Shown in pieces: positions 43,977 through 64,000 of a stretch of 64,000 nt of DNA; position 1 is the stretch's first letter, and each line of letters starts with the position of its first letter. The DNA is taken from contig JBBTBX010000002.1 of NCBI GenBank assembly GCA_038043465.1, positions 110,944-174,943 on the forward strand. The letters run 5' to 3'. Made by a program: the position numbers and the translations under genes. The notes under the pieces are model-generated. The model had not been told where the DNA came from and searched no databases. It was given only the letters and a program-made list of their open reading frames with translations. Source of the stretch: Pseudomonadota bacterium. Lineage in GTDB: Bacteria > Pseudomonadota > Alphaproteobacteria > Rickettsiales > SXRF01.

Positions 43977-44201
43977 ATGAAGCCAATTGATATAGAAAAT
44001 TTTGATTTTTCACATCTTAGTCTTAATGAAAGAGTTATGCTTGCAGAAAGATTATGGGATAGCATCGAAGAGCATGTTAAGCAAAAACCTCTTACTGACG
44101 AGCAAATGGATGAAGTGGAAAACCGTATAAAATCTTATAAAGCAGGAGAAATGGAGACTTCTACATGGGATGAAGTAAAAAGCCGATGGGACTCTTTATA
44201 A
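43977..44201 (+). CDS. addiction-module antitoxin (short helical 'addiction module component' type)
   Basis: 74 aa. ...LSLNERVMLAERLWDSIEE...EVENRIKSYKAGEMETSTWDEVKSRW. AGGAG RBS. Followed after 6 nt by a RelE/ParE ORF. Confidence 0.65.
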   Translation: MKPIDIENFDFSHLSLNERVMLAERLWDSIEEHVKQKPLTDEQMDEVENRIKSYKAGEMETSTWDEVKSRWDSL

Positions 44202-44207
44202 GTTAAT

Positions 44208-44516
44208 TTGATGAAATATAAAATTGTAATAACAAAAGCTGCTGACCGTGACTTTATAAAAGATTTTTTGTGGTACGCTAAAGAAAACTCTGATTTAGCA
44301 AAAAGATTTAGAGAAAGTATCAAAAAAGAGATAAAGTTTTTATCGGATGCGCCTTTTGCTTGTGCATTAATTTCAAAAGAAGCAAGACAAGTCATATCTC
44401 ATAAATTTCCCTATCGTATAATTTTCATAATTGAAGATAATAATGTTGTAATAATTGCAATACTGCATGTAAAACGCTCTCCAAGCATTTGGAAAAAACG
44501 AATCACTAACCATTAA
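44208..44516 (+). CDS. RelE/ParE-family toxin
   Basis: 102 aa. ...HKFPYRIIFIIEDNNVVIIAILHVKRSP is a typical C-terminal toxin core. Confidence 0.7.
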   Translation: MMKYKIVITKAADRDFIKDFLWYAKENSDLAKRFRESIKKEIKFLSDAPFACALISKEARQVISHKFPYRIIFIIEDNNVVIIAILHVKRSPSIWKKRITNH

Positions 44517-44533
44517 GAAAATTATCATAAGCC

Positions 44534-45676
44534 ATGACAAAAAATTACTACGAAATACTCGGTGTTTCCAAAAGCGCATCACAGGATGAATTGAAAAAAG
44601 CTTACCGCAAATTGGCGATGCAATATCATCCGGATAAAAATGCCGGCAATAAGGAAGCAGAGGAAAAATTCAAAGAAATCAGCCATGCTTACGACATACT
44701 TTCTGACGAGCAGAAACGCGCGGCTTATGACCGCTATGGTCATGAAGCCTTCAATCAGGGAGGAATGGGTGGCGCGTCTGGTGGAGCTGGTATGGGAGGT
44801 TTTGATTTCTCTTCCGGATTTGCCGATATATTTGAAGATTTATTCGGGATGGGCGGTGGCAGACGTGGCGGTGGTGAGTCGCAATCTACTGCCCGCGGGG
44901 CTGACCTGCGCTATAATCTAAGCATATCGCTGGAAGAAGCTTTCACTGGCAAATCCGAAACTATTAAAATAACTACGGCTGCATCATGTGATACCTGCAG
45001 CGGTAGCGGTGGTGCAAATGGCAGCAAACCTGTTATCTGTACAACTTGTAACGGCAGCGGAAGAGTCCGTGCAACTCAAGGGTTCTTTACAGTGGAACGC
45101 ACCTGTAGCAGTTGTGGTGGAATGGGAAAGATTATTAAAGACCCATGTAAAACCTGTGCAGGAAGCGGGCGGGTACGCAAAGAAAAAACATTGTCAGTCA
45201 ATATTCCTGCCGGAGTTGAGGAAGGCACGCGCATACGTTTAAGTGGTGAAGGTGAAGTTGGTGTAAGGGGTGGTCCTGTTGGTGATTTATATATTTTCGT
45301 CAGCATAAAACAACATGGCTTGTTTGCGCGTGATGGTGCGGATATTCACTGCAATATCCCTATAAAAATGACAACTGCGGCTCTGGGCGGCTCAATCGAA
45401 GTTCCTACTATTGACGGAACGCGTATAAAAGTTACGATACCGGAAGGAACACAGCACGGTCACCAGATGCGCCTGCGCGGTAAAGGTATGTCGATTTTGC
45501 GAGCTGGCAGCCGTGGCGATATGTATATCCATACTCTCGTTGAAACACCGGTTAGACTAAGTAAAAAGCAAAAAGAATTGCTAAAGGAATTCGACAAAGG
45601 CAGCGAGAATGTCAGCCCGCAATCAGAAAGTTTCTTTAATAAAATTAAGGATTTCTGGTCGGATTTGAAGGAATAG
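44534..45676 (+). CDS. dnaJ: molecular chaperone DnaJ
   Basis: J domain YYEILGV...HPDKN, G/F-rich region, and four CxxCxGxG zinc-finger repeats. Confidence 0.97.
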
Positions 45677-45859
45677 GATTATCCATAATATAAATTATCC
45701 ATGAATATCAATGCATTAACTCTGTAACTTGCTTAAATTTCATTAAAAATGTCATGAAACTGTAACTTTACCTTAATTACTCACGAAGTATATTATAGTA
45801 AGAACCTTAATTTCTGAAATAATATAAGTTTATGGGAATATTAGAAAAGTTATTTAGAC

Positions 45860-47674
45860 ATGCCTCGTAGAGAAGAATCTCCTATACATTACTCCCCATA
45901 TGATCCTGAGGCTGGAGCAGCAGGATCTAACCATCTTGCTGAATATGGTCATGTACGTCCAGATAGAGAACTTGGTTATAGATTCCAAGATGCTGGTCGT
46001 GGTGCTAAGTTCGATGCTGAAGGGAACATACTAACTAATGCAAATAGAGAAATTATTGTTGTAAGCCCCGATAGGGATCCTGTTCTTAAAAAAGCAATTG
46101 AAGAAGCTAAAACTTCACTATCTCAAATACCCTCACATGAAGAAAAAGTTAAGTATATTGCTGATTACGTTGATAGTTTGATGAAGGAAAAAAACGCTGC
46201 AAAAAATGAGCAAATTTTAGAGAGTATAGTCGGCGGACCGACTGAAGGGAAAAAAGTATCACTAGGTCAGCTAATTGAGAACGGAACAGGTGTTTGCCGT
46301 CATAGGTCATTATTGTTCAAAGCAATTGCTGATGAAATAGGGATACCAAGTTCTGTTGATAAAGGCAGTTATGTAAATGCAGATGGCACTAAACAAAATC
46401 ATCAATGGAATAAAGTTGAGCTGCCAAATGGAAAAGATCTTATTGTTGACACAATGAGCAAGAGTGAAAAAGTTATTGGCATGGGTCACCCCAGAGTCAA
46501 TATTTATAGGGATATTAATGGCAAGCCACTATATCAAGATGCGTATTCAATACAAAATGCACTTACAAGTAAATCTAAAAGTGGTGACGTAATAACTTAT
46601 AAAGTAAGTGAAAATGGAGTTGATTTTGGGGCTATTGCGATTAGAGGAAGTGCCGAAGAATTAGGAGATTTAAAGAAAGCTTTAAACAAAGAGGGTATCA
46701 AAACAGCAGAAGTTAGAACAGATAGTACTATCGGTAATTATCTTAGTATAAGCAATAGGCGTGATTTCAGAGAAAGATTTGAATTTGAAAGTGTTTCTGT
46801 CTATCCTCAAGTGCGTACGTTACAAGAAAAAATTACAAATAAATCTGCTTCTGGCGATGTCGTATCTTATAATACCAATAAAGGCACTACGTTATTGATT
46901 AGAGGTAATACAAAGGAATTAAAAGGTTTTGAAGATCAGTTTGCAAAAATTGGAATTAAAACAGAGATAGGAAGTGATGCCAGGCTTGGTGAATATATAC
47001 GTCTAAAAAGTGATAGTGTACGTGAATTCCACATATTATTTGATGTTAAACCTGTACCAATAACTGAAGCAATATCTAAAGCTGAAGCAATGTCTAAAAA
47101 TCCTGATGCCACTCCTAACAAAGGCGGCATTAAAGCAGCAATAGAAGATGGCAAAGGTCTTCTTAAAAAAGCTTTTAAATTATTCCCCGGTGTTGCAATT
47201 GTTGCTGTTGCCCCTGAAGTTTTTGCTAAAACCACTGAGATTGCTGATGACAGAACAGCGAGTGTGCAGGAAAAGTTGGTTTCATTTGGACATAACTTTC
47301 TTAGGGGTGGAGCTGATATCACTTTGGGAGCTATTGGTGGTACAGCAGCACAAGAAGGCTTAGAGAAAGCTGCAATGGCAATGGGTGCCAAAAAGGAACT
47401 TCTTATACCGCTTGATAGAGAAGGACTAGGGATTAAAAACAGGGATGATGTGGCCCAGCTTAAGCAAGACGCTGGCAATTACAGGGAAAATTTCGGTAAA
47501 CCAAAAGAAATAATGTCAGATGTCAAATTCGCTAAGGCTATGCAGGAGGCAAAAGATAAAGGTTTAACTGGTAAAGACTATAAACCTGTTGAATCTGATC
47601 AAAACATGAAGCCCGTAGTAATAGCGCAAAAAGCTCCGCAAGTCTCTTCTGATAAAAGCATGCTAATTAATTAA
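45860..47674 (+). CDS. hypothetical protein with CTR1/EDR1-like transglutaminase/papain-fold domain plus two internal about 80-aa repeats (effector candidate)
   Basis: 604 aa. [58 protein letters not shown] carries Cys146, His181 and Asp197 in triad order. Repeats at aa 231-312 and 321-397. Confidence 0.55.
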
Positions 47675-48690
47675 GCCGCTAAATTTTCTTCTGCTATGGA
47701 ATTACTAACGCCAGCAACATAAGCGGTACGCTCATAAAAATCTATCACTTCCTGTTTAACTGCGACTGGGTCGTGCATCGTGTTAATTCTTTGGCGGTAT
47801 TCGGCAGAGCCATAAAGCCCGCTGGAATACCAGCCTAGATGTTTGCGGGCGATCATAACGCCATTGGCTGCGCCATAATGCTCGAGCATTTCATCGTAAT
47901 GCGCCAGCACGATTTCGCGCTGTTCGGCAAGGCTTGGCGGCGCAATTTTCTCTCCGGTTTTCAAATAATGGCAAACCTGCGCCGGAAACCATGGGCGACC
48001 ATAACTGCCACGCCCGATCATCACTCCATCCGCGCCTGACTCAGCCAGAGCCATCTCCACATCATCAAAATTATTGATGTCACCATTCACCACCACCGGC
48101 AGTTTCACCGCTTCTTTAACACTCCTGACAAAGCTCCAGTCGGCATGACCTTTATACATCTGGCAGCGTGTGCGCCCATGCACGGTGAGCAGTTTAATCC
48201 CTACATCTTCAGCAATTCTGGCAATTTTTGGCGCATTGCGGTTGCTATCATCCCAACCTGTCCGCATTTTAAGGGTTACTGGAATTTTAACAGCCTTAAC
48301 CGTTGCTTCCAGAATTTTCGCGGCAAGTGGCTCATCGCGCAGCAAGGCTGAGCCGGCATTGCCACCCACAACTTTTTTAACCGGACAACCGAAATTGATG
48401 TCGATCATATGCGCGCCGCGATCTTCATTCAGTTTTGCCGCCTCACCCATCACTTCCGGATCACACCCGGCAAGTTGCACGGCAAAAGGAAACTCAAGCG
48501 GTGAAAAACTAGCCATGCGCATAGTATTTTTTGTCTCGAGTATCATTGCGCGTGAGGCAATCATTTCTGAAACCACCATCCCTACCCCGAAACGCTTAAC
48601 CAGTTTGCGGAATGGCAGGTCGGAAACTCCGGTCATCGGCGCGAGCCATACCGGATTTTCAATATTTATGTTGTCTATCGTTATAGTCAT
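47671..48690 (-). CDS. dusB: tRNA-dihydrouridine synthase B (NifR3 family)
   Basis: [24 protein letters not shown] and TVHGRTR motifs. Confidence 0.92.
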
Positions 48691-57021: not shown

Positions 57022-60000
57022 CTACAACAAGAAATCGCTCGCTGCCAGGGTATGCAGTCCGGTTAGTTCGATTTGCATATCGAGCGTGCCGTTACTATCA
57101 GCGTCTATGCCGATAATAGTGTTGCCGGAAACTTGTGCATAATTAACCCCAGCTACTGAACCACCCAAAGCACCTGTGCCTTTAAAAGTGAAGCTTCCGG
57201 CGAAATCAGTAAGGTCGATTTTATCAGTGCCTTTAACGAAATCAGTGATAATGTCACGTACACCTGTCGCTTTTCCAGAATCAGTTATTGCGCTGAATTT
57301 AAACACATCAGCACCAGCACCGCCAGTCATGGTGTCTTTTCCAGTCCCGCCAGTTATAATATTGGCAAGGGTATTTCCCAGCAATGTATCGTTGTAAGTA
57401 GAACCAGTTAGATTTTCGATATTAGTGAGTATATCGCCGGCAGCAAAGCCACCAGATTGCGCGGTGGTAACAGCCAGATTTACATTCACTGCCGCTGTGG
57501 AGTTAGCGTATGAAACTGTATCAATCCCTGCCCCACCATTGATGTTATTAGCAACTGAGCTGCCTGTAAATGTGTCGTTCAAAGGTGAACCAATAATGTT
57601 TTCAATGCTGATTAGCGTATCGTCCTGAGCATGACCGCCAGATTGAGCGGTGGTGATTCCGAGATTTACATTAACTGCGGCAGTAGAAGCTGCGTAGGAC
57701 ACAGTATCAGTTCCCACCCCTCCATCAAGTATATCAACTCCGGTGCTTCCGGAAATTGTATCATTACCATCAAGGGCATAAATTACTTCATTACCGGCGA
57801 TTCCAGCCAGGATGTTATCCGCTGTGGTTCCGGAGATTATTTTAGCGACATTAATTTTGGCAGTGGCAGTGTTTGAAATAATACCGTTAGAATCTTTAAC
57901 GCTATAGGTAAAACTATCCATACCGTTATATCCTGCGGTCGGGGTATAAAGGATTGTGCCATCGGTAGCATTAATGCTCACTGTGCCGTGTGCAGGAGTG
58001 GTCAAACCAGTTATACTGCTAGCAAAGAGAACTGTCTCAACATCATTATCATTAGCCAGAACATTAAGTTTAGTCGCGGTGTTTTCGACAACCACAAAGC
58101 TGTCGTTAGTCGCCACAGGAATATCGTTTACCGGTGTCACCGTAGCATCAACAATCAGAGTGCTGGTTGCGCCGAATGAATCGGTTAGTTTTATGGTGAT
58201 TTTATCAATCCCGTTGTAATTAGGCTTTGGAGTATAAGTTATCATATTGCCGGCAAAGCTGATACTGGCATTAGGTGAGGAGACGGAATTGATGGTAAAA
58301 GCATTGCCGTCCGGATCATAAAAATAGCTATTCACATCAAAAGTTGCTGGAGTATCTTCAGTAAATGTAATGGTGCTGCCTGTCTTAAATTTAGGAGAGT
58401 CATTAATTAGAGTTACATTTATTGTAGCTGTAGCAATGTTGGAAACCAACCCCTGCGAATCAGTAACTGTATATTTAAAACTATCCTGTCCGTAGAAATC
58501 AGCTTTTGGTGTGTATAACACCTTGCCATCACTTTGGATTGCAACTGTACCATTTGTCGGCTGGGTAGTTATTTTAATATTAGCTGCCGGGAAGAAACCA
58601 TCTTCCACATCCGAATCATTGCTCAGAATAGTTATAAGGGCGGTGCTATCTTCACTGATTGTGATGACATCATTAGTTGCCACAGGCGCATCATTTACCG
58701 AAATAATCGTGGCATTTACCGTTTTGGTATCAAAACCACCATTGCCATCAGAAATCGTGTAGGTGAATGAATCAGTGCCGAAATAGTTTTTGGAAGGAGT
58801 ATAAAATAACTTACCACCGGAAATGCTGGTAGAGCCATGCGCCGCACCGCCAGCAGAATATATAGTCATGGTATTATTTTCTATATCAGTCGCACCAACC
58901 AGAGCCAGCACTTCAACTGGTGTATCCTCATTGGTTGTTATAGTTTTGTTCAGTCCCACCGGAGCATCATTAACCGGTGCCACATTAACACTGATAGTTT
59001 TGCTCTGGCTTACACCGGCTGCGTCTTTATAGGAAATAGTAAAACTATCAGTGCCAAAATAATTAGCTTTTGAGGTGTAAATTATATCACCGCTGGTATT
59101 TACAGAAGCTGTGCCATTCACGGCAGCCCCTGAGATAATAATATTTTTATAATCAGCACTACCATCATTTTTATTAAGCAGTTTTATTTTTGTGGCTACA
59201 TCCTCATTAACTACCACATAACCATTCACAGAATAAACCGTGGATACAGGTTCAATAGAAGCCGCATTGGTCAGGTTGAATTTTGTTCCATCAGCAAATT
59301 GGATATATTCCATGCGGTTATTGTCGGTAGCGAAAAATTTGCTGACTAATATAGAATCGGTTTTCCCCTGAGTTACTATACGTAGATCATCACCAACCCG
59401 AATCATTGCCATAGTAGAAGATAAAATACCAGTACCCAGCACTATTTTATCGCCAACACCACCGGATTCGGTAAGAATATCACTACCATAACCAGCGTCA
59501 AAATTATAGGTATCAACTCCACCGCCACCTCTTAAAATATCATTACCGATGCCGCCATTGATAATATCAATATCTTCACTGCCATAGATATAGTCATTAC
59601 CCGCAGCTCCACTCAGATTGTCGGCAAAAGGTGTTCCGATTATTATATCATCTGCCGCACTGCCAGTCACAGTAATTGCCTTGGTGATATCAATGATTCT
59701 GCCATCGGCAAATTTAAGGGTTTCTACCCGGTAATTGGAGTTAGTGAAGAAATTATTGATAGTTACTCGGTCATTGGCACTGTAGCTTATAATTAGATTA
59801 GTTCCGGATGCCTCCATCAATATATCCTGCGGTACTATCCCAGCCCCAAATACTATCTGGTCAGCACCCGTATAATCAGAAAGCGTATCCTGTCCATCAC
59901 CAATGTTGAAGATATAGACATCGTTACCTGTGCTTCCATCAATAATATCATTGCCTTTGCCAGCGTTAATAGTGTCATTACCGCTATAGCCATAGATGGT

Positions 60001-63000
60001 GTCGTTGCCAATATTGCCAGTTAAATTATCATTAAAACTAGCCCCCACCAGAGTTTCACCGGTAGTTTTAGTGCCAAGTAAAGTAAGCCCACCTGATAAA
60101 TCTAATATGCTGCCATCAGCGAATTTAAGGCTTTCGATTTTATAGTTGCTTCCAGAATTACTAAAAAAGCTTTTTAGTGTTATCTGGTCGCCATTCGTTC
60201 CAACTTTAATAATCAGTGACTGGCTATTCGCATAATCGGAAATAAGCTGAATGCCAGCCTTGGCAATCCCCGTGCCAAACACTATCTGGTCGATTCCGGT
60301 GTAATCAGTAATCGTGTCCTGCCCGTCACCGACATTGAAGATATAAGTATCATTGCCGCTATAGAAACTGCTGTTATCAATAATATCATTACCTTTACCG
60401 CCGGTGATAATATCATTGCCTTCATTACCGTAAATTGTGTCAGCTCCTATATTTCCGGTCAGGGTATCATTGGAATATATACCGTACAAGGTTTCGCCTG
60501 TGGTTTTTGTCGCGCTTAAAGTTAAACCAGTTGTTAAATCCAATACACTGCCATCAGCGAATTTAAGGCTTTCGATTTTATAGTTGCTTCCAGAATTACT
60601 AAAAAAGCTTTTTAGTGTTATCTGGTCGCCATTCGTTCCCACTTTAATAATCAGTGACTGGTTATTAGCGTAATCCGAAATGAGCTGAATATTGGCTTTT
60701 GTTATCCCCGCGCCAAAAACTATCTGGTCAGTTCCGGTGTAATCAGTAATCGTGTCCTGCCCATCGCCGACATTGAAGATATAAGTATCGTTGCCGCTAT
60801 AGAAACTGCTGTTATCAATAATATCGTTGCCTTTTCCACCATTTATCGTGTCATTGCCTTCATTACCGTAAATGGTATCCGCCCCGATATTCCCGGTCAA
60901 CACGTCATTAGAGTATATACCGTACAAGGTTTCGCCTGTGGTTTTTGTCGCGCTTAAAGTTAAACCAGTTGTTAAATCCAATACACTGCCATCAGCGAAT
61001 TTAAGGCTTTCGATTTTATAGTTACTTCCAGAATTATTAAAAAAGCTTTTTAGAGTTATCTGATCGCCATTAGTACCAACCTTGATAATCAGCGACTGGC
61101 TATTAGTATAATCGGAAATGAGCTTGATAGATGCCTTGGTTATCCCCGCCCCGAACACAATCTGGTCAGTTCCGGTGTAATCATAAATAGTGTCTTGCCC
61201 ATCACCAATATTGAATATATAACTATCATTGCCTGAATAATAGGTGCTACCACCATCGATAATATCATTACCCTTACCACCAGTGATAGTGTCATTACCT
61301 TCATTGCCGTAAATTGTGTCATTACCGATATTGCCAGTCAGCACATCATTAGAGTATATCCCAAACAAAGTTTCGCCTGTGGTTTTTGTACCAACCAGCG
61401 TTAAACCAGTGGTTAAATCCAGCACACTGCCATCAGCAAATTTAAGAGTTTCGATTTTGTAATTACTGTCTTGCGTATAAAAGAAATTCTTTAAACTTAT
61501 CTGGTCGCCATTCGTGCCAATTTTTACAATCAGCGACTGGTTATTAGCATAATCAGAAATCAGTTGAATATTGGCCTTGGTAATCCCCGCACCGAACACA
61601 ATCTGGTCAGTTCCAGTGTAATCATAAATAGTATCCTGCCCGTCACCGACATTAAAGATATAGGTATCGTTACCCGAATAGAAACCACTTCCGCCATCGA
61701 TAACATCATTACCCTTACCGCCAGTGATAGTGTCATCGCCAGTACCACCAACGATATTATCATTCCCACCCAGCCCCTTTATCACATCATTTTTTGATGT
61801 TCCAGTTAAGGTTTCCGCCAAATCCGTGCCAGTCATGAGTGAGCCGATATTCGCAAGGCTGAGGCTGCTGCCATCGACAAACTCCAGCGTTTCCACGCGA
61901 TTGGTAGTAGCAACATAAAAATTCTTGATGCCTATCTTATCGCCAGCCGTACCAATATTAATCACCAAATCATTTCCCACCTGCGCGTATGACACATCCG
62001 CCGCGCTGATGCCGTCACCCAGCAAAATCTTATCCATCCCCGCATTATCATCAATCGAATCCTGCCCATCGCCACGGCTAAAACGATAAATATCATTACC
62101 AGCGTCGCCTTTCAGAATATCATTGCCCTTACCGCCCACAAAATAATCATTCCCAGCGAAGCCATAGAGTTCGTCGTTAGCGGCATCGCCATGCAGTATG
62201 TCATTTTTGGTTGTGCCGTAGAGTATGTCGATCTCCGATGTGCCATAATTAAGCCTGCCATCGAAGGTGAAGCCGGAAGGAATTGCCAGGGTTGCAATGC
62301 TGGCTGTCAGCGAATCAAGCTTACTGTCGAACGCAGCATCATTAAACTGGTCCTTGTTGAGTTTCAGGATATTTTCGGCGTAATAGATATAATTAGTGAA
62401 GCTGTCTGAGTTTATGGCTTTGGCTTTTATCGCAGCGATAGCTTCATCGAGCGTGCTGCCGATGGTGAGTTTGTCGCTGGCGAAGTCGTAACTGGCATTA
62501 GGGAATACATCATGCAGCACCGATTGCACCAGAAACTTATTCAGGAAATAATTATAGAACATGTCCCATGCCTGCTGCGCCAGCGGAACACCAGTTTGAG
62601 TGCGGTTGAAGAAATCACCACCGGTAATCTTCTCCATGAAGGCTGTCTTTTTGGCAGAGAATGGTATATAACCAAAGGCGGAATCATAAACATCAGCACT
62701 GGTGACATTCTGGACACCCGCCCAGCGGAAGAGGAACGCCTCGAACTTGTCGCCAAGCAGATAGAAGTCTTTAGGCTGGGTGGCTGCAAGGTCTTTCGCC
62801 ATCGCAAGTAAAGTCGGGTCGAGAGTCATTGCTGCCTGCCATGAATAGAGGCTGCCGTAACCACGGGAATAAGGAAGCAGTAAACTATCAACGCTAAGTT
62901 TGAATGTAGAAGGCAGGGTAAAGTCAGGATTGGTAAACACAGTCGGAGTTTCGAAGCCGAAATTAATCTCATGGATGTTTCTTACGTTGCCATTGGTAAA

Positions 63001-64000
63001 TTTAACAGTGGAAACGGCAGTCTGCATGTTTCCGGAGATTGTTTGTAAATTAGCATATTTAATAAGAGATATTTCTGTCACACCGTTAGCCGTCAGTGTG
63101 GTTAATTCTCCGGTGTCAACTGTTCCATCCGCATCTTTATCATTCCACAGTTTTAATAACGAGAATTGAGTATCGGTAGCATTAATTAAATTGTCTTTAT
63201 TGGAATCATATTTACTCAGTTCTGCAAAACCGTTGACGCTAGGATTGCCGAACATTTCATTAACATTATCAATATTGCCGTTGGAGTTTTTATCAACTAC
63301 TAAGAAAACATCGTCACCATTCGCCTTAGTCCATCCGGTATTCTCTTTCGTTCCATTACCATCGAGATCGAAGAGCGCGGTTGCAGTTTGCCACGAATTA
63401 AGAGCAATACCATTGCCATTTAGGTCAATAATGAGTGGATCGATTAAACTTGCCGCACCCGCCTTAGCGAAGACCTCATTCGCCTGCTTAATCAAAAGAT
63501 CAGCATTCGCAGCGTTTTTTTCTGCATTATCGTCAATCCCGTCACCATCCAAATCCACAAGCTTCGGTATCGTTATCCCCATGAACGTATAATCAGCCTT
63601 CGGATCGTAAGTCGATTTGAAGAAGTTTTTGATGATTGCGGCAGAATCAGAGTCGGAAGCGGCAACCAGATCATTACCCTGCTTCTGGAAAATGACATCA
63701 CCAAGCTGATAAAGATCCCTACCGACAGCTTTGGCAGTGCCAGTAACGGTGGTATTATTAAAGACGATTTTATCTCCATTTTCTGCATCGGTGATGGTGT
63801 CTATTCCTTCGCCACCAGCAGATAAAAATATGTCATTCCCTGCCCCACCAGTCAGCGTGTCCTTCCCACCACCGCCAATGATAATATCATTACCGCCACC
63901 ACCAGAGATAGTGCTGATTCCTTCGCCACCAATCAGCAAATCATTTCCACCTGAGCCATTAATTAAATTATCACCCTTACCATCAACAAACAGATTGACT
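57022..64000 (-). CDS. giant RTX / cadherin-like calcium-binding adhesin, type I secretion substrate (5' end beyond right edge)
   Basis: More than 2320 aa inside the window. The frame is still open at 64000 (I translated 63940-63999: ...VNLFVDGKGDNLINGSGGND...). Many GGxGxD nonapeptides, tandem modules, five VNDAP-bounded Ig/cadherin-like modules, and a C-terminus ...GGAGADVFKF...DFVKGTDKIDLTDF...ASDFLL typical of T1SS substrates. Confidence 0.9.
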   Translation of the reverse strand, partial: VNLFVDGKGDNLINGSGGNDLLIGGEGISTISGGGGNDIIIGGGGKDTLTGGAGNDIFLSAGGEGIDTITDAENGDKIVFNNTTVTGTAKAVGRDLYQLGDVIFQKQGNDLVAASDSDSAAIIKNFFKSTYDPKADYTFMGITIPKLVDLDGDGIDDNAEKNAANADLLIKQANEVFAKAGAASLIDPLIIDLNGNGIALNSWQTATALFDLDGNGTKENTGWTKANGDDVFLVVDKNSNGNIDNVNEMFGNPSVNGFAELSKYDSNKDNLINATDTQFSLLKLWNDKDADGTVDTGELTTLTANGVTEISLIKYANLQTISGNMQTAVSTVKFTNGNVRNIHEINFGFETPTVFTNPDFTLPSTFKLSVDSLLLPYSRGYGSLYSWQAAMTLDPTLLAMAKDLAATQPKDFYLLGDKFEAFLFRWAGVQNVTSADVYDSAFGYIPFSAKKTAFMEKITGGDFFNRTQTGVPLAQQAWDMFYNYFLNKFLVQSVLHDVFPNASYDFASDKLTIGSTLDEAIAAIKAKAINSDSFTNYIYYAENILKLNKDQFNDAAFDSKLDSLTASIATLAIPSGFTFDGRLNYGTSEIDILYGTTKNDILHGDAANDELYGFAGNDYFVGGKGNDILKGDAGNDIYRFSRGDGQDSIDDNAGMDKILLGDGISAADVSYAQVGNDLVINIGTAGDKIGIKNFYVATTNRVETLEFVDGSSLSLANIGSLMTGTDLAETLTGTSKNDVIKGLGGNDNIVGGTGDDTITGGKGNDVIDGGSGFYSGNDTYIFNVGDGQDTIYDYTGTDQIVFGAGITKANIQLISDYANNQSLIVKIGTNGDQISLKNFFYTQDSNYKIETLKFADGSVLDLTTGLTLVGTKTTGETLFGIYSNDVLTGNIGNDTIYGNEGNDTITGGKGNDIIDGGSTYYSGNDSYIFNIGDGQDTIYDYTGTDQIVFGAGITKASIKLISDYTNSQSLIIKVGTNGDQITLKSFFNNSGSNYKIESLKFADGSVLDLTTGLTLSATKTTGETLYGIYSNDVLTGNIGADTIYGNEGNDTINGGKGNDIIDNSSFYSGNDTYIFNVGDGQDTITDYTGTDQIVFGAGITKANIQLISDYANNQSLIIKVGTNGDQITLKSFFSNSGSNYKIESLKFADGSVLDLTTGLTLSATKTTGETLYGIYSNDTLTGNIGADTIYGNEGNDIITGGKGNDIIDNSSFYSGNDTYIFNVGDGQDTITDYTGIDQIVFGTGIAKAGIQLISDYANSQSLIIKVGTNGDQITLKSFFSNSGSNYKIESLKFADGSILDLSGGLTLLGTKTTGETLVGASFNDNLTGNIGNDTIYGYSGNDTINAGKGNDIIDGSTGNDVYIFNIGDGQDTLSDYTGADQIVFGAGIVPQDILMEASGTNLIISYSANDRVTINNFFTNSNYRVETLKFADGRIIDITKAITVTGSAADDIIIGTPFADNLSGAAGNDYIYGSEDIDIINGGIGNDILRGGGGVDTYNFDAGYGSDILTESGGVGDKIVLGTGILSSTMAMIRVGDDLRIVTQGKTDSILVSKFFATDNNRMEYIQFADGTKFNLTNAASIEPVSTVYSVNGYVVVNEDVATKIKLLNKNDGSADYKNIIISGAAVNGTASVNTSGDIIYTSKANYFGTDSFTISYKDAAGVSQSKTISVNVAPVNDAPVGLNKTITTNEDTPVEVLALVGATDIENNTMTIYSAGGAAHGSTSISGGKLFYTPSKNYFGTDSFTYTISDGNGGFDTKTVNATIISVNDAPVATNDVITISEDSTALITILSNDSDVEDGFFPAANIKITTQPTNGTVAIQSDGKVLYTPKADFYGQDSFKYTVTDSQGLVSNIATATINVTLINDSPKFKTGSTITFTEDTPATFDVNSYFYDPDGNAFTINSVSSPNASISFAGNMITYTPKPNYNGIDKITIKLTDSFGATSTLIVDATVTPVNDIPVATNDSFVVVENTATKLNVLANDNDVETVLFASSITGLTTPAHGTVSINATDGTILYTPTAGYNGMDSFTYSVKDSNGIISNTATAKINVAKIISGTTADNILAGIAGNEVIYALDGNDTISGSTGVDILDGGVGTDTVSYAASTAAVNVNLGITTAQSGGHAQDDTLISIENIIGSPLNDTFTGSSVANNINGGAGIDTVSYANSTAAVNVNLAVTTAQSGGFAAGDILTNIENLTGSTYNDTLLGNTLANIITGGTGKDTMTGGAGADVFKFSAITDSGKATGVRDIITDFVKGTDKIDLTDFAGSFTFKGTGALGGSVAGVNYAQVSGNTIIGIDADSNGTLDMQIELTGLHTLAASDFLL
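57850..59260 (-). repeat. five tandem about 95-100-aa cadherin/Ig-like coding modules
   Basis: Each module is bounded by VNDAPV / INDSPK / VNDIPV and contains ...YTP..(N/D)(Y/F)(F/Y/N)G.DSF.Y... Confidence 0.75.
59290..62300 (-). repeat. tandem coding repeats (RTX nonapeptides + about 100-aa beta module), period 411-441 bp, about 7 copies
   Basis: Anchor word tgccatc(a/g)(g/a)c recurs at 59700, 60111, 60549, 60987, 61428 and 61869. The copies starting at 60111 and 60549 share about 90 identical consecutive nt at one end and about 75 at the other. Confidence 0.85.

What the first reader, a model, noticed from the sequence alone, without database searches (positions are those of the whole stretch)
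45860..47674. Eukaryote-like CTR1/EDR1-type transglutaminase-fold domain protein with an internal duplicated module: effector candidate
Seen in the sequence:
- A 604-aa ORF sits in an AT-rich stretch between dnaJ and dusB.
- Residues about 140-200 read [58 protein letters not shown].
- Two about 80-aa repeats follow: ...[13 protein letters not shown]...[25 protein letters not shown]...IGNYLSIS... and ...[12 protein letters not shown]...[24 protein letters not shown]...LGEYIRLK...
- A Gly/Ala/Lys-rich tail ends the protein.

Established knowledge, from my recollection: the N-terminal regulatory domain of plant Raf-like kinases CTR1/EDR1 carries the signature G-x-C-RHRA-LLFK-x-LAD...G...Y...D-LM. 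It has been classified as a papain/transglutaminase-like Cys-His-Asp fold, with scattered bacterial homologues in intracellular bacteria.

Inference: Cys146, His181 and Asp197 form a catalytic triad. The protein may be a secreted host-targeting peptidase, deamidase or transglutaminase.
Basis: partly seen in the sequence, partly recalled or inferred. Interest (0 to 1): 0.6.

Follow-up and report, generated by a model that had tools for sequence, protein, structure and literature searches.

The report
Acquired EDR1-type cysteine peptidase-like gene
An uncultured water bacterium picked up a gene for a probably active enzyme of the poorly understood EDR1/CTR1 cysteine-peptidase-like family, joined to two copies of an undescribed accessory module; it is a new variant of a known family.

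Summary
The 604-aa ORF (45860-47674, +) is real. It matches Pfam PF14381 (EDR1/CTR1/ARMC3 peptidase-like) at 62 bits against a cut-off of 27. The Cys146-His181-Asp197 triad is kept in 144, 149 and 147 of 150 relatives. Residues 10-225 fold with pLDDT above 90 into a transglutaminase-like domain (Z 11.7 to TglA, PDB 9CRN).

The two internal repeats are genuine (score 110; shuffles 28 ± 5). They are copies of a module with no Pfam model. Its predicted fold is alpha-beta-beta-alpha-beta-beta-alpha, like a degenerate LAGLIDADG/WhiA domain. The module marks a bacterial subfamily that carries 1-3 copies.

"Eukaryote-like" is true only of the family name. All close relatives found are bacterial-type, and none of 87 scanned carries a kinase or ARM domain.

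The gene is a clean 1,994-bp insertion between dnaJ and dusB, which lie 5 bp apart in a congener. PF14381 was found in 0 of 60 related genomes. The ORF's GC3 is the 6th lowest of 1,037 ORFs.

Secretion or host targeting is not shown. There is no signal peptide, no neighbouring secretion gene and no immunity gene.

The scan has met PF14381 domains before on other DNA (Peregrinibacteria, DPANN archaea).

Verdict: a new variant of a known kind, of moderate interest.

The parts
45677..47670 (+). Inserted segment of 1,994 bp between the stop codons of the convergent genes dnaJ and dusB
   Evidence: In congeners G001, G008 and G006, dnaJ and dusB are directly adjacent. In G001 only 5 bp separate the two stop codons. 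Neither the gene nor the segment has a counterpart there.
45677..45859 (+). AT-rich 183-bp leader. It holds a sigma-70-like match at 45767-45796, but such matches are not more frequent here than in shuffles.
   Evidence: Sequence. The promoter scan found 6 sites against a shuffle mean of 7.4. One contig from an RNA library begins at 45844.
45860..47674 (+). ORF of 604 aa (P0001). Its stop codon overlaps the stop codon of dusB on the other strand.
45947..46543 (+). EDR1/CTR1/ARMC3-type transglutaminase-fold cysteine peptidase-like domain, residues about 30-228
   Evidence: Pfam PF14381 covers residues 60-201, 62 bits. Relatives align over residues about 30-240. pLDDT is above 90 for residues 10-225. 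Z is 11.7 to TglA 9crn_A and 8.9-9.6 to TG3, factor XIII, TG2 and LapG.
46295..46297 (+). Codon of Cys146, the predicted nucleophile in the motif G-V-C-R-H-R
   Evidence: Cys in 144 of 150 aligned relatives. It aligns with the Cys of TglA.
46400..46402 (+). Codon of His181, the predicted general base in the motif H-x-W-N
   Evidence: His in 149 of 150 relatives. It aligns with the AHAWN motif of TglA.
46448..46450 (+). Codon of Asp197, the predicted third triad member
   Evidence: Asp in 147 of 150 relatives.
46535..46795 (+). Accessory module copy 1 (residues 226-312), predicted alpha-beta-beta-alpha-beta-beta-alpha
   Evidence: Secondary structure. Folded alone, 19 of the top 20 structural rows are LAGLIDADG endonuclease or WhiA domains; the best is I-DmoI at Z 8.8, rmsd 2.7, 77 of 87 residues. 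The module is shared with relatives.
46802..47059 (+). Accessory module copy 2 (residues 315-400), a diverged duplicate of copy 1
   Evidence: The self-alignment scores 110 against shuffles of 28 ± 5. It has the same secondary-structure order. Residues 313-400 match 1af5_A at Z 6.5.
47060..47671 (+). Lineage-specific C-terminal tail (residues 401-604). It is rich in Lys, Ala and Gly and is predicted helical or disordered at low confidence.
   Evidence: pLDDT is mostly below 50. No relative other than the near-identical strain variants appeared among 161 stored proteins or in the region search of the large collection.
47171..47227 (+). The only moderately hydrophobic stretch, residues 438-456 ([16 protein letters not shown]...)
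   Evidence: The highest Kyte-Doolittle 19-residue mean in the protein is 1.66, at residue 438. This is borderline for a membrane segment.

Best explanation
The ORF encodes a horizontally acquired, solitary protein. It is probably a catalytically competent member of the EDR1/CTR1/ARMC3 branch of transglutaminase/papain-fold cysteine enzymes.

Mechanism (inferred from the fold family): Asp197 orients His181, which activates Cys146. Cys146 then attacks an amide bond in a protein substrate, either a peptide bond or a Gln side chain, through a thioester intermediate. The outcome would be cleavage, deamidation or cross-linking.

Two tandem accessory modules follow the catalytic domain. They have a degenerate LAGLIDADG/WhiA-like fold and no nuclease motif. 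Most likely they form a beta-sheet platform that holds the substrate or a partner protein. This is inferred. Their near-neutral charge argues against general DNA binding.

The unique tail (residues 401-604) may carry localisation or export information, which is also inferred.

The protein is made without a Sec signal. I put the chance that it acts outside the producer, on a prey, host or competitor cell via a non-Sec route, at about 0.4. I put the chance that it acts inside the cell at about 0.35.
For: Family and catalytic residues:
- PF14381 scores 62 bits against a cut-off of 27. A whole-genome search gave the same match at 64.5 bits.
- Triad conservation is C 144/150, H 149/150 and D 147/150. 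Asp73, Gly136, Gly169 and Trp183 are each kept in 148/150.
- The profile alignment puts Cys146 and His181 on the Cys and His motifs of TglA.

Fold:
- pLDDT is above 90 for residues 10-225.
- Z is 11.7 to TglA with rmsd 3.4 over 169 residues. Z is 8.9-9.6 to TG3, factor XIII, TG2 and LapG. Foldseek gave the same group.

Module:
- The two copies are significantly similar.
- 36 non-redundant stored relatives carry the module: 25 with one copy, 5 with two and 6 with three.
- The module is clustered on the peptidase tree: 9 changes against a shuffled mean of 32.4, and 0 of 500 shuffles were as low.
- All 6 proteins found with the module profile in the large collection also carry PF14381.
- LAGLIDADG/WhiA domains fill 19 of the top 20 rows.
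- Mean module net charge is +0.26, sd 2.9, n = 53.

Acquisition:
- PF14381 is present in 0 of 60 relatives: 8 of the same genus, 28 of the same family and 24 of the same order.
- dnaJ and dusB are adjacent in 3 of 5 congeners examined.
- GC3 is 0.227, the 6th lowest of 1,037 ORFs.

Real gene kept by selection:
- A 7,216-nt DNA contig from another study carries the same dnaJ-ORF-dusB arrangement with 69 differences and no gaps. Of the 29 listed changes inside the ORF, 20 are synonymous.
- Contigs identical to the ORF, spanning 45844-47593, occur in two RNA libraries of one sample.

Hints of a conflict role:
- Relatives put the domain at the end of giant proteins with RHS, LysM, PA14 or NPCBM parts.
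- The closest named relatives come from Micavibrio and Bdellovibrionales MAGs.
- Amino-acid differences between strains cluster in the loop at residues 162-179 beside the active site (6 of 9 changes) and in module 1 at residues 270-300 (11 of 14 changes).
Against: - No enzymatic activity is known to me for any PF14381 member. The one review passage I read (PMC10318531) only classifies the family beside the C71 and C93 peptidases.
- The module models are only moderately confident: pLDDT 50-90 in the full model and a mean of 65.9 when folded alone. Z values of 7-9 can reflect a common arrangement (notes).
- Against export: there is no N-terminal hydrophobic region, and no close relative has a signal-like N-terminus among the 31 inspected. 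No secretion gene and no immunity-size ORF flanks the gene.
- FHA fusions in 14 of 87 scanned relatives point to cytoplasmic signalling roles for the domain.
- Only 2 of the 6 closest loci (L003, L005) show the atypically low GC3 seen here.
- RNA-library contigs do not prove transcription (tool warning).
Confidence: 0.6

Rival explanations
1. It is an intracellular regulatory or quality-control peptidase or transamidase that never leaves the producer. It would act on the bacterium's own proteins, with the modules serving as substrate adaptors.
For: There is no signal peptide. No secretion or immunity gene is adjacent. FHA domains, which are cytoplasmic phosphothreonine readers, are fused to the domain in 14 of 87 scanned relatives. 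The gene sits beside the chaperone genes dnaK and dnaJ.
Against: The position beside dnaJ is an insertion and not a conserved operon. PF14381 is present in 0 of 60 relatives, so it cannot be a core function. Its composition is foreign. Substitutions between strains cluster near the active site.
Confidence: 0.3
2. It is an antibacterial toxin of the polymorphic-toxin kind, with its immunity protein encoded elsewhere or not needed.
For: Relatives carry the domain at the C-terminal end of giant proteins with RHS repeats, LysM and similar parts, for example P0052, P0036 and P0066. Distribution is patchy. Some close relatives come from predatory lineages.
Against: Here the domain is N-terminal and the protein has no known delivery domain. 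There is no room for an immunity gene, because the ORF stop overlaps the dusB stop. No VipB (T6SS) match was found in the genome. In the six closest loci, ORF lists of at least 100 aa show no ORF starting right after the gene's stop. Neighbours there were listed but not annotated, and shorter ORFs were not listed.
Confidence: 0.07
3. It is a catalytically silent scaffold. The domain would serve only as a protein-binding unit, as is usually assumed for the N-terminal region of the plant kinases (recalled knowledge, not checked here).
For: No activity is documented for the family, to my knowledge. A minority of relatives lack the Cys (6 of 150).
Against: Cys146, His181 and Asp197 and the surrounding CRH and HxWN motifs are kept in 96-99% of 150 relatives across phyla. 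That level of conservation is hard to explain without catalysis.
Confidence: 0.08

Closest known systems
Pfam PF14381, EDR1/CTR1/ARMC3 peptidase-like domain (N-terminal region of plant Raf-like kinases EDR1 and CTR1; C-terminal region of ARMC3)
   Same: The match is above the gathering cut-off (62 bits against 27). It shares the G-x-C-R-H-R and H-x-W-N motifs and the Cys-His-Asp positions.
   Different: There is no kinase or armadillo partner. The domain is N-terminal and is followed by LAGLIDADG-like modules. The nearest relatives are bacterial. I could not align eukaryotic members, because none was available from a tool.
Hypothetical protein QQG35432.1 of a Micavibrio aeruginosavorus MAG (P0004, 827 aa), and proteins that NCBI names 'EDR1-related protein' in Pseudomonadota and Bdellovibrionales MAGs (P0005, P0012)
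   Same: The layout is the same: an N-terminal peptidase-like domain followed by 2-3 copies of the module. P0004 is 38% identical over residues 38-359, E 5e-54.
   Different: The C-terminal tails are unrelated in sequence; only one weak 50-residue match at E 0.03 was found. Copy number differs.
Streptococcus pyogenes TglA (PDB 9CRN) and other transglutaminase-fold enzymes: TG3, factor XIII, TG2, LapG, TgpA, PeiW/PeiP
   Same: The fold matches: Z 11.7 for TglA and Z 6.8-9.6 for the others. The Cys and His motifs align with TglA at the sequence-profile level, E 4.8e-4.
   Different: Sequence identity is 8-18%. The Pfam Transglut_core score is 20.9, below its cut-off of 23. I found no paper on TglA of S. 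pyogenes in two searches, so no function can be transferred.
LAGLIDADG homing endonuclease domains (I-DmoI, PI-PfuI, I-CreI) and their inactive derivative in WhiA
   Same: The predicted alpha-beta-beta-alpha-beta-beta-alpha topology matches. Z is 8.8 to I-DmoI, 8.6 to WhiA and 7.7 to PI-PfuI, covering 77-80 of 87 residues. Two tandem copies resemble single-chain enzymes (Foldseek I-DmoI E 4.7e-4).
   Different: None of the 16 modules matches any LAGLIDADG Pfam model at E up to 1. No conserved acidic residue ends helix 1: alignment A2 has no invariant column. Net charge is near neutral. This is a fold resemblance only.

Membership tests
PF14381 EDR1/CTR1/ARMC3 peptidase-like | Profile match above the curated gathering score | tested here: met
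   62 bits against 27, E 8.9e-17, residues 60-201 matching profile positions 58-198 of 203. The genome search gave 64.5 bits.
PF14381 EDR1/CTR1/ARMC3 peptidase-like | Conserved Cys, His and Asp at the papain/transglutaminase catalytic positions | tested here: met
   Cys146, His181 and Asp197 are present. They are conserved in 144, 149 and 147 of 150 relatives.
PF14381 EDR1/CTR1/ARMC3 peptidase-like | Transglutaminase/papain-like fold | tested here: met
   In the AlphaFold2 model, residues 10-225 have pLDDT above 90. Z is 11.7 to 9crn_A and 8.9-9.6 to TG3, factor XIII, TG2 and LapG. This rests on a prediction, not a solved structure.
PF14381 EDR1/CTR1/ARMC3 peptidase-like | Triad side chains within catalytic distance; enzymatic activity | not testable with these tools
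   Model coordinates are not returned.
PF01841 Transglut_core | Profile match above the gathering score | tested here: inconclusive
   20.9 bits against a cut-off of 23 for this protein. Close relatives pass, for example P0004 at 32.7 and P0007 at 35.3 bits.
LAGLIDADG homing endonucleases | alpha-beta-beta-alpha-beta-beta-alpha fold | tested here: met
   19 of the top 20 rows are LAGLIDADG or WhiA domains, best Z 8.8. The model's mean pLDDT is only 65.9.
LAGLIDADG homing endonucleases | LAGLIDADG sequence motif with a catalytic acidic residue at the end of helix 1; match to a family profile | tested here: not met
   0 of 16 modules match a LAGLIDADG Pfam model at E up to 1. Alignment A2 has no invariant column and none in helix 1.
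Polymorphic toxin systems | C-terminal toxin domain behind a delivery region, with an adjacent immunity gene | tested here: not met
   The domain is N-terminal with no delivery domain. The ORF stop overlaps the dusB stop, and the upstream neighbour is dnaJ.
Sec/Tat-exported proteins | N-terminal signal peptide | tested here: not met
   The N-terminus is polar. The eight most hydrophobic 19-residue windows all lie at residues 433-444. The 31 closest relatives inspected start directly with the conserved domain or a polar lead. No dedicated predictor was available.
Type IV secretion effectors | Translocation by a T4SS | not testable with these tools
   The genome has 2 VirB4 matches and 2 VirD4-type coupling-protein genes (3 match rows) on other contigs. 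Nothing links them to this gene.

The most novel reading that the evidence does not exclude
The module-bearing proteins are an undescribed class of exported effectors of predatory or epibiotic Alphaproteobacteria and Bdellovibrionota. In this reading, one or two LAGLIDADG-like modules form a saddle, by dimerising or in tandem, that recognises a specific macromolecule of the target cell. The EDR1-type Cys-His-Asp centre then cleaves or cross-links that target. This would give the first defined substrate and chemistry for the whole EDR1/CTR1/ARMC3 domain family, including the plant and animal proteins.
Probability: 0.15. Interest if true: 0.7.

Novelty: new variant of a known kind. Interest (0 to 1): 0.45.

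Why it matters
- The EDR1/CTR1/ARMC3 domain sits in well-studied plant signalling kinases and in an animal sperm and autophagy protein. No chemistry has been assigned to it, as far as I know and as far as the one review passage I read shows.
- This is a compact bacterial member with an intact triad, a confident model and a dedicated accessory module, so it is a tractable object for finding the family's reaction and substrate.
- The accessory module has no Pfam model and appears to be a new use of the LAGLIDADG-type fold outside nucleases and WhiA.
- The locus is also a clean example of single-gene gain between two housekeeping genes.

Tried and rejected
- PDB by sequence with the single protein gave only a chance-level hit (CigR, E 0.29).
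- NCBIfam, PADLOC and PHROGs gave nothing meaningful.
- The word-indexed homology search found only 2 proteins. The exhaustive search was needed.
- The ESM Atlas gave no usable hit for residues 226-400, and only scores of 0.83-0.86 to viral hypothetical proteins for residues 401-604. That is below the level the tool calls meaningful.
- The C-terminal tail has no relatives beyond strain variants among stored proteins or in the region search.
- My first module HMM, seeded only with the two copies of this protein, recovered few relatives: 6 proteins. A seed from alignment A1 was needed. That HMM still scores only copy 1 of this protein at E up to 1e-3.
- The promoter and terminator scan found no more sites than shuffles, and no terminator.
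- TLC (ATP/ADP translocase) gave no match, but the control genomes were also silent, so this says nothing. VipB gave no match. Only 3 ankyrin-repeat ORFs were found, which gives no sign of a symbiont-type effector arsenal.
- Literature: searches for 'EDR1-related protein', for TglA with S. pyogenes, and for EDR1 with transglutaminase-like and bacterial found nothing on bacterial members beyond one classification review. PMC11445079 mentions a different TglA.
- The RNA-library contigs cover only the ORF and not the laid dnaJ and dusB flanks.
- Run X11 laid nothing.
- Complex prediction was not used, because no specific partner is proposed.
Full report
**1. Observation**

The window holds an ATG-started ORF of 604 codons at 45860-47674 on the + strand. 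Upstream lies dnaJ (44534-45676). Downstream and convergent lies dusB (47671-48690). Both were confirmed with Pfam at E of 1e-15 or better.

The quoted motif is residues 142-199, and the numbering of Cys146, His181 and Asp197 is correct. The ORF is AT-rich: GC is 0.377 and GC3 is 0.227, against GC3 of 0.396 in dnaJ and 0.488 in dusB. Genome-wide it has the 6th lowest GC3 of 1,037 ORFs of at least 250 aa (mean 0.411, sd 0.072).

The two repeats (residues about 226-312 and 315-400) align with score 110. Across 300 shuffles the mean was 28.1, the sd 5.0 and the maximum 51. The tail is rich in Lys, Ala and Gly.

**2. The catalytic-type domain**

- *Family match.* Pfam places residues 60-201 in PF14381 (EDR1_CTR1_ARMC3_pept) at E 8.9e-17, 62 bits against a cut-off of 27. 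Transglut_core falls just below its cut-off, at 20.9 against 23.
- *Relatives.* An exhaustive HMMER search of 1.84 billion representatives found 388 relatives at E up to 1e-3 and 160 at E up to 1e-10. In all listed hits except the protein's own cluster, the best stretch lies within residues 5-298. So only the N-terminal half has relatives.
- *Conserved residues.* In an alignment of 150 domain sequences, Cys146 is kept in 144, His181 in 149 and Asp197 in 147. Asp73, Gly136, Gly169 and Trp183 are each kept in 148. Before that alignment I left out 7 near-duplicates or fragments and 4 partial matches from 161 stored proteins.
- *Link to a solved structure.* A profile of alignment A1 matches only one solved structure by sequence: the transglutaminase-like protein TglA of Streptococcus pyogenes (9CRN, E 4.8e-4). 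Cys146 aligns on its Cys and His181 on its AHAWN motif.
- *Predicted fold.* AlphaFold2 with 40 sequences gives pLDDT above 90 for residues 10-225. VIA-align gives Z 11.7 to TglA (rmsd 3.4, 169 residues) and Z 8.9-9.6 to TG3, factor XIII, TG2 and LapG. PeiW/PeiP, arylamine N-acetyltransferases, PNGase and vasohibin follow at Z 6-8. Foldseek agrees.
- *Limit.* I could not measure triad distances, because coordinates are not returned.

**3. The repeats are a shared, undescribed module**

- *Seen in relatives.* Alignment A1 showed that many relatives of about 320 aa carry one copy of the same segment of about 70-85 residues after the peptidase domain, and that longer relatives carry more.
- *Copy number.* An HMM built from those columns finds the module in 36 non-redundant stored proteins: 25 with one copy, 5 with two and 6 with three. 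In four proteins (P0003, P0013, P0014, P0017) a copy lies N-terminal of the peptidase domain. The HMM scores only copy 1 of this protein at E up to 1e-3. Copy 2 is recognised through the self-alignment.
- *Distribution.* Among 72 genome loci with a PF14381-type gene, only the six closest (L002-L007) have the module. They come from Micavibrio, Alphaproteobacteria, Pseudomonadota, Bdellovibrionales and Sphingomonas MAGs.
- *Clustering on the tree.* On a quick maximum-likelihood tree of the peptidase domain (150 rows), the module is clustered. It needs 9 changes against a shuffled mean of 32.4, and 0 of 500 shuffles were as low. The nearest row to this protein is P0004 of a Micavibrio MAG, 49% identical over 193 columns. 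No starred branch defines a clade around the query.
- *Exclusive to the family, on weak evidence.* A profile search of the 5.8-billion collection with module alignment A2 (longer proteins) returned 6 proteins, and all 6 carry PF14381. This is weak evidence because of the word index.
- *No Pfam model.* None of the 16 modules matches any Pfam family meaningfully; the best E is 0.043.
- *Predicted fold.* The module is predicted as alpha-beta-beta-alpha-beta-beta-alpha. Folded alone (mean pLDDT 65.9), 19 of the top 20 structural rows are LAGLIDADG homing-endonuclease or WhiA domains. The best are I-DmoI (Z 8.8, rmsd 2.7, 77 of 87 residues) and WhiA (Z 8.6).
- *Fold resemblance only.* There is no LAGLIDADG motif and no conserved acidic residue. 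The modules are on average uncharged: +0.26, sd 2.9, n = 53. I therefore read them as a degenerate, non-nuclease use of that fold, probably a binding platform. This is an inference.

**4. The tail**

Residues 401-604 have no relative other than near-identical strain variants. pLDDT is mostly below 50. There is one borderline hydrophobic stretch at residues 438-456, with a Kyte-Doolittle mean of 1.66. Its role is unknown.

**5. Origin**

- *Absent from relatives.* PF14381 occurs once in this 2.09-Mb genome. It occurs in 0 of 60 related genomes: 8 of the same genus, 28 of the same family and 24 of the same order. Among genomes at least 90% complete, including this one, 1 of 53 has a match.
- *Insertion site.* In congeners G001, G008 and G006 the order is dnaK-dnaJ-dusB-ispDF-pgpA, with dnaJ and dusB adjacent. 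In G001 only 5 bp separate the two stop codons, and the sequence resumes identically at the dusB stop (TAAGCCGC). So 45677-47670 is a 1,994-bp insertion carrying an AT-rich leader and the ORF. I examined no flanking repeats, tRNA genes or mobility genes.
- *A variable site in the genus.* At this site G003 has an unrelated 125-aa ORF. G005 has an unrelated 569-aa ORF followed by a 902-aa ORF that looks like gyrA by inspection only. Neither of the two small ORFs has a Pfam match.
- *Composition elsewhere.* Two of the six closest relatives also have lower GC3 than their neighbours: L005 at 0.42 against 0.54-0.86, and L003 at 0.29 against 0.33-0.46. The other four do not.

**6. Is it a live gene?**

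- The stretch is held by 20 listed runs from 8 studies of groundwater, drinking-water, wastewater and biofilter samples. Five of the runs may be the source.
- One wastewater DNA contig of 7,216 nt spans dnaJ-ORF-dusB with 69 differences and no gaps. The 29 listed differences inside the ORF give 9 amino-acid changes, so 20 are synonymous.
- Two RNA libraries of one aquifer sample hold contigs identical to the ORF between 45844 and 47593. The tool warns that this does not prove transcription.
- Strain variants differ in clusters. P0002 has 6 of its 9 changes in residues 162-179, the loop between the Cys helix and His181. P0153 has 11 of its 14 changes in residues 270-300, within module 1. This fits recombination or diversifying selection on surface patches, but three sequences cannot show it.

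**7. Where does it act?**

Against export:
- The N-terminus is polar. The 31 closest relatives inspected also lack a signal-like start.
- No secretion gene and no immunity-size gene is adjacent.
- The genome has 2 VirB4 matches and 2 VirD4-type coupling-protein genes on other contigs. It has a 2,305-aa RTX-type adhesin in the window and no VipB match. None of this links to the gene.
- FHA is fused to the domain in 14 of 87 scanned relatives, which suggests cytoplasmic roles.

For a conflict role:
- More distant relatives fuse the domain to RHS, LysM, PA14, NPCBM or EF-hand parts.
- Distribution is patchy.
- Some close relatives come from predatory lineages.
- Substitutions between strains are clustered.

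I put export at about 0.4 and an intracellular role at about 0.35.

**8. Comparison with the known, and novelty**

Membership of PF14381 is met by profile score, motif and predicted fold. Activity and triad geometry could not be tested.

The label 'eukaryote-like' describes the family's name, not this protein's ancestry. Of 87 relatives scanned, none has a kinase or ARM domain, and 83 match PF14381 at the thresholds used.

NCBI already names some relatives 'EDR1-related protein'. The scan has reported PF14381 domains in Peregrinibacteria and DPANN archaea (not re-tested by me).

What is new here:
- the LAGLIDADG-like accessory module and the architecture it defines;
- the clean, species-specific insertion.

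In the literature I found only a classification review that mentions the family beside the C71 and C93 peptidases; I read passages of PMC10318531. Searches for bacterial members found nothing.

Verdict: a new variant of a known kind, interest 0.45.

Noticed in passing
window 43977-44516 (+): A type II toxin-antitoxin pair lies between dnaK and dnaJ: Unstab_antitox (PF09720, E 2.4e-16) and ParE_toxin (PF05016, E 2.9e-10). It is absent at that place in G001, G008, G006 and G003. G005 has two such pairs there.
   Followed up: partly
L083 3937-5646 (-) and L082 5951-6328 (+): The site downstream of dnaJ varies within the genus. G005 has a 569-aa ORF and G003 a 125-aa ORF there. Neither has any Pfam match, and both are unrelated to the EDR1-type gene.
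   Followed up: partly
window 57022-63939 (-): A 2,305-aa ORF carries RTX nonapeptide repeats, HCBP_related, Big_9 and cadherin-like domains. It looks like a giant T1SS-type adhesin.
   Followed up: no
window 46343-46396 and 46667-46759 (residues 162-179 and 270-300 of the ORF): Near-identical strain variants differ in two tight clusters. P0002 has 6 of 9 changes in the loop beside the active site. P0153 has 11 of 14 changes in module 1. This may reflect recombination or diversifying selection.
   Followed up: partly
stored proteins P0131, P0141, P0052, P0054: Distant relatives combine the domain region with FHA plus annexin, or with EF-hand and RHS parts, in proteins of 1,200-1,800 aa. These are unusual architectures of unknown origin.
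   Followed up: no
G000 C5:123041-123652, C6:354996-355583, C3:18019-19338, C4:107278-108765: There are two VirB4 genes and two VirD4-type coupling-protein genes on four different contigs. I did not examine whether they belong to conjugative elements or to an effector-translocating system.
   Followed up: no
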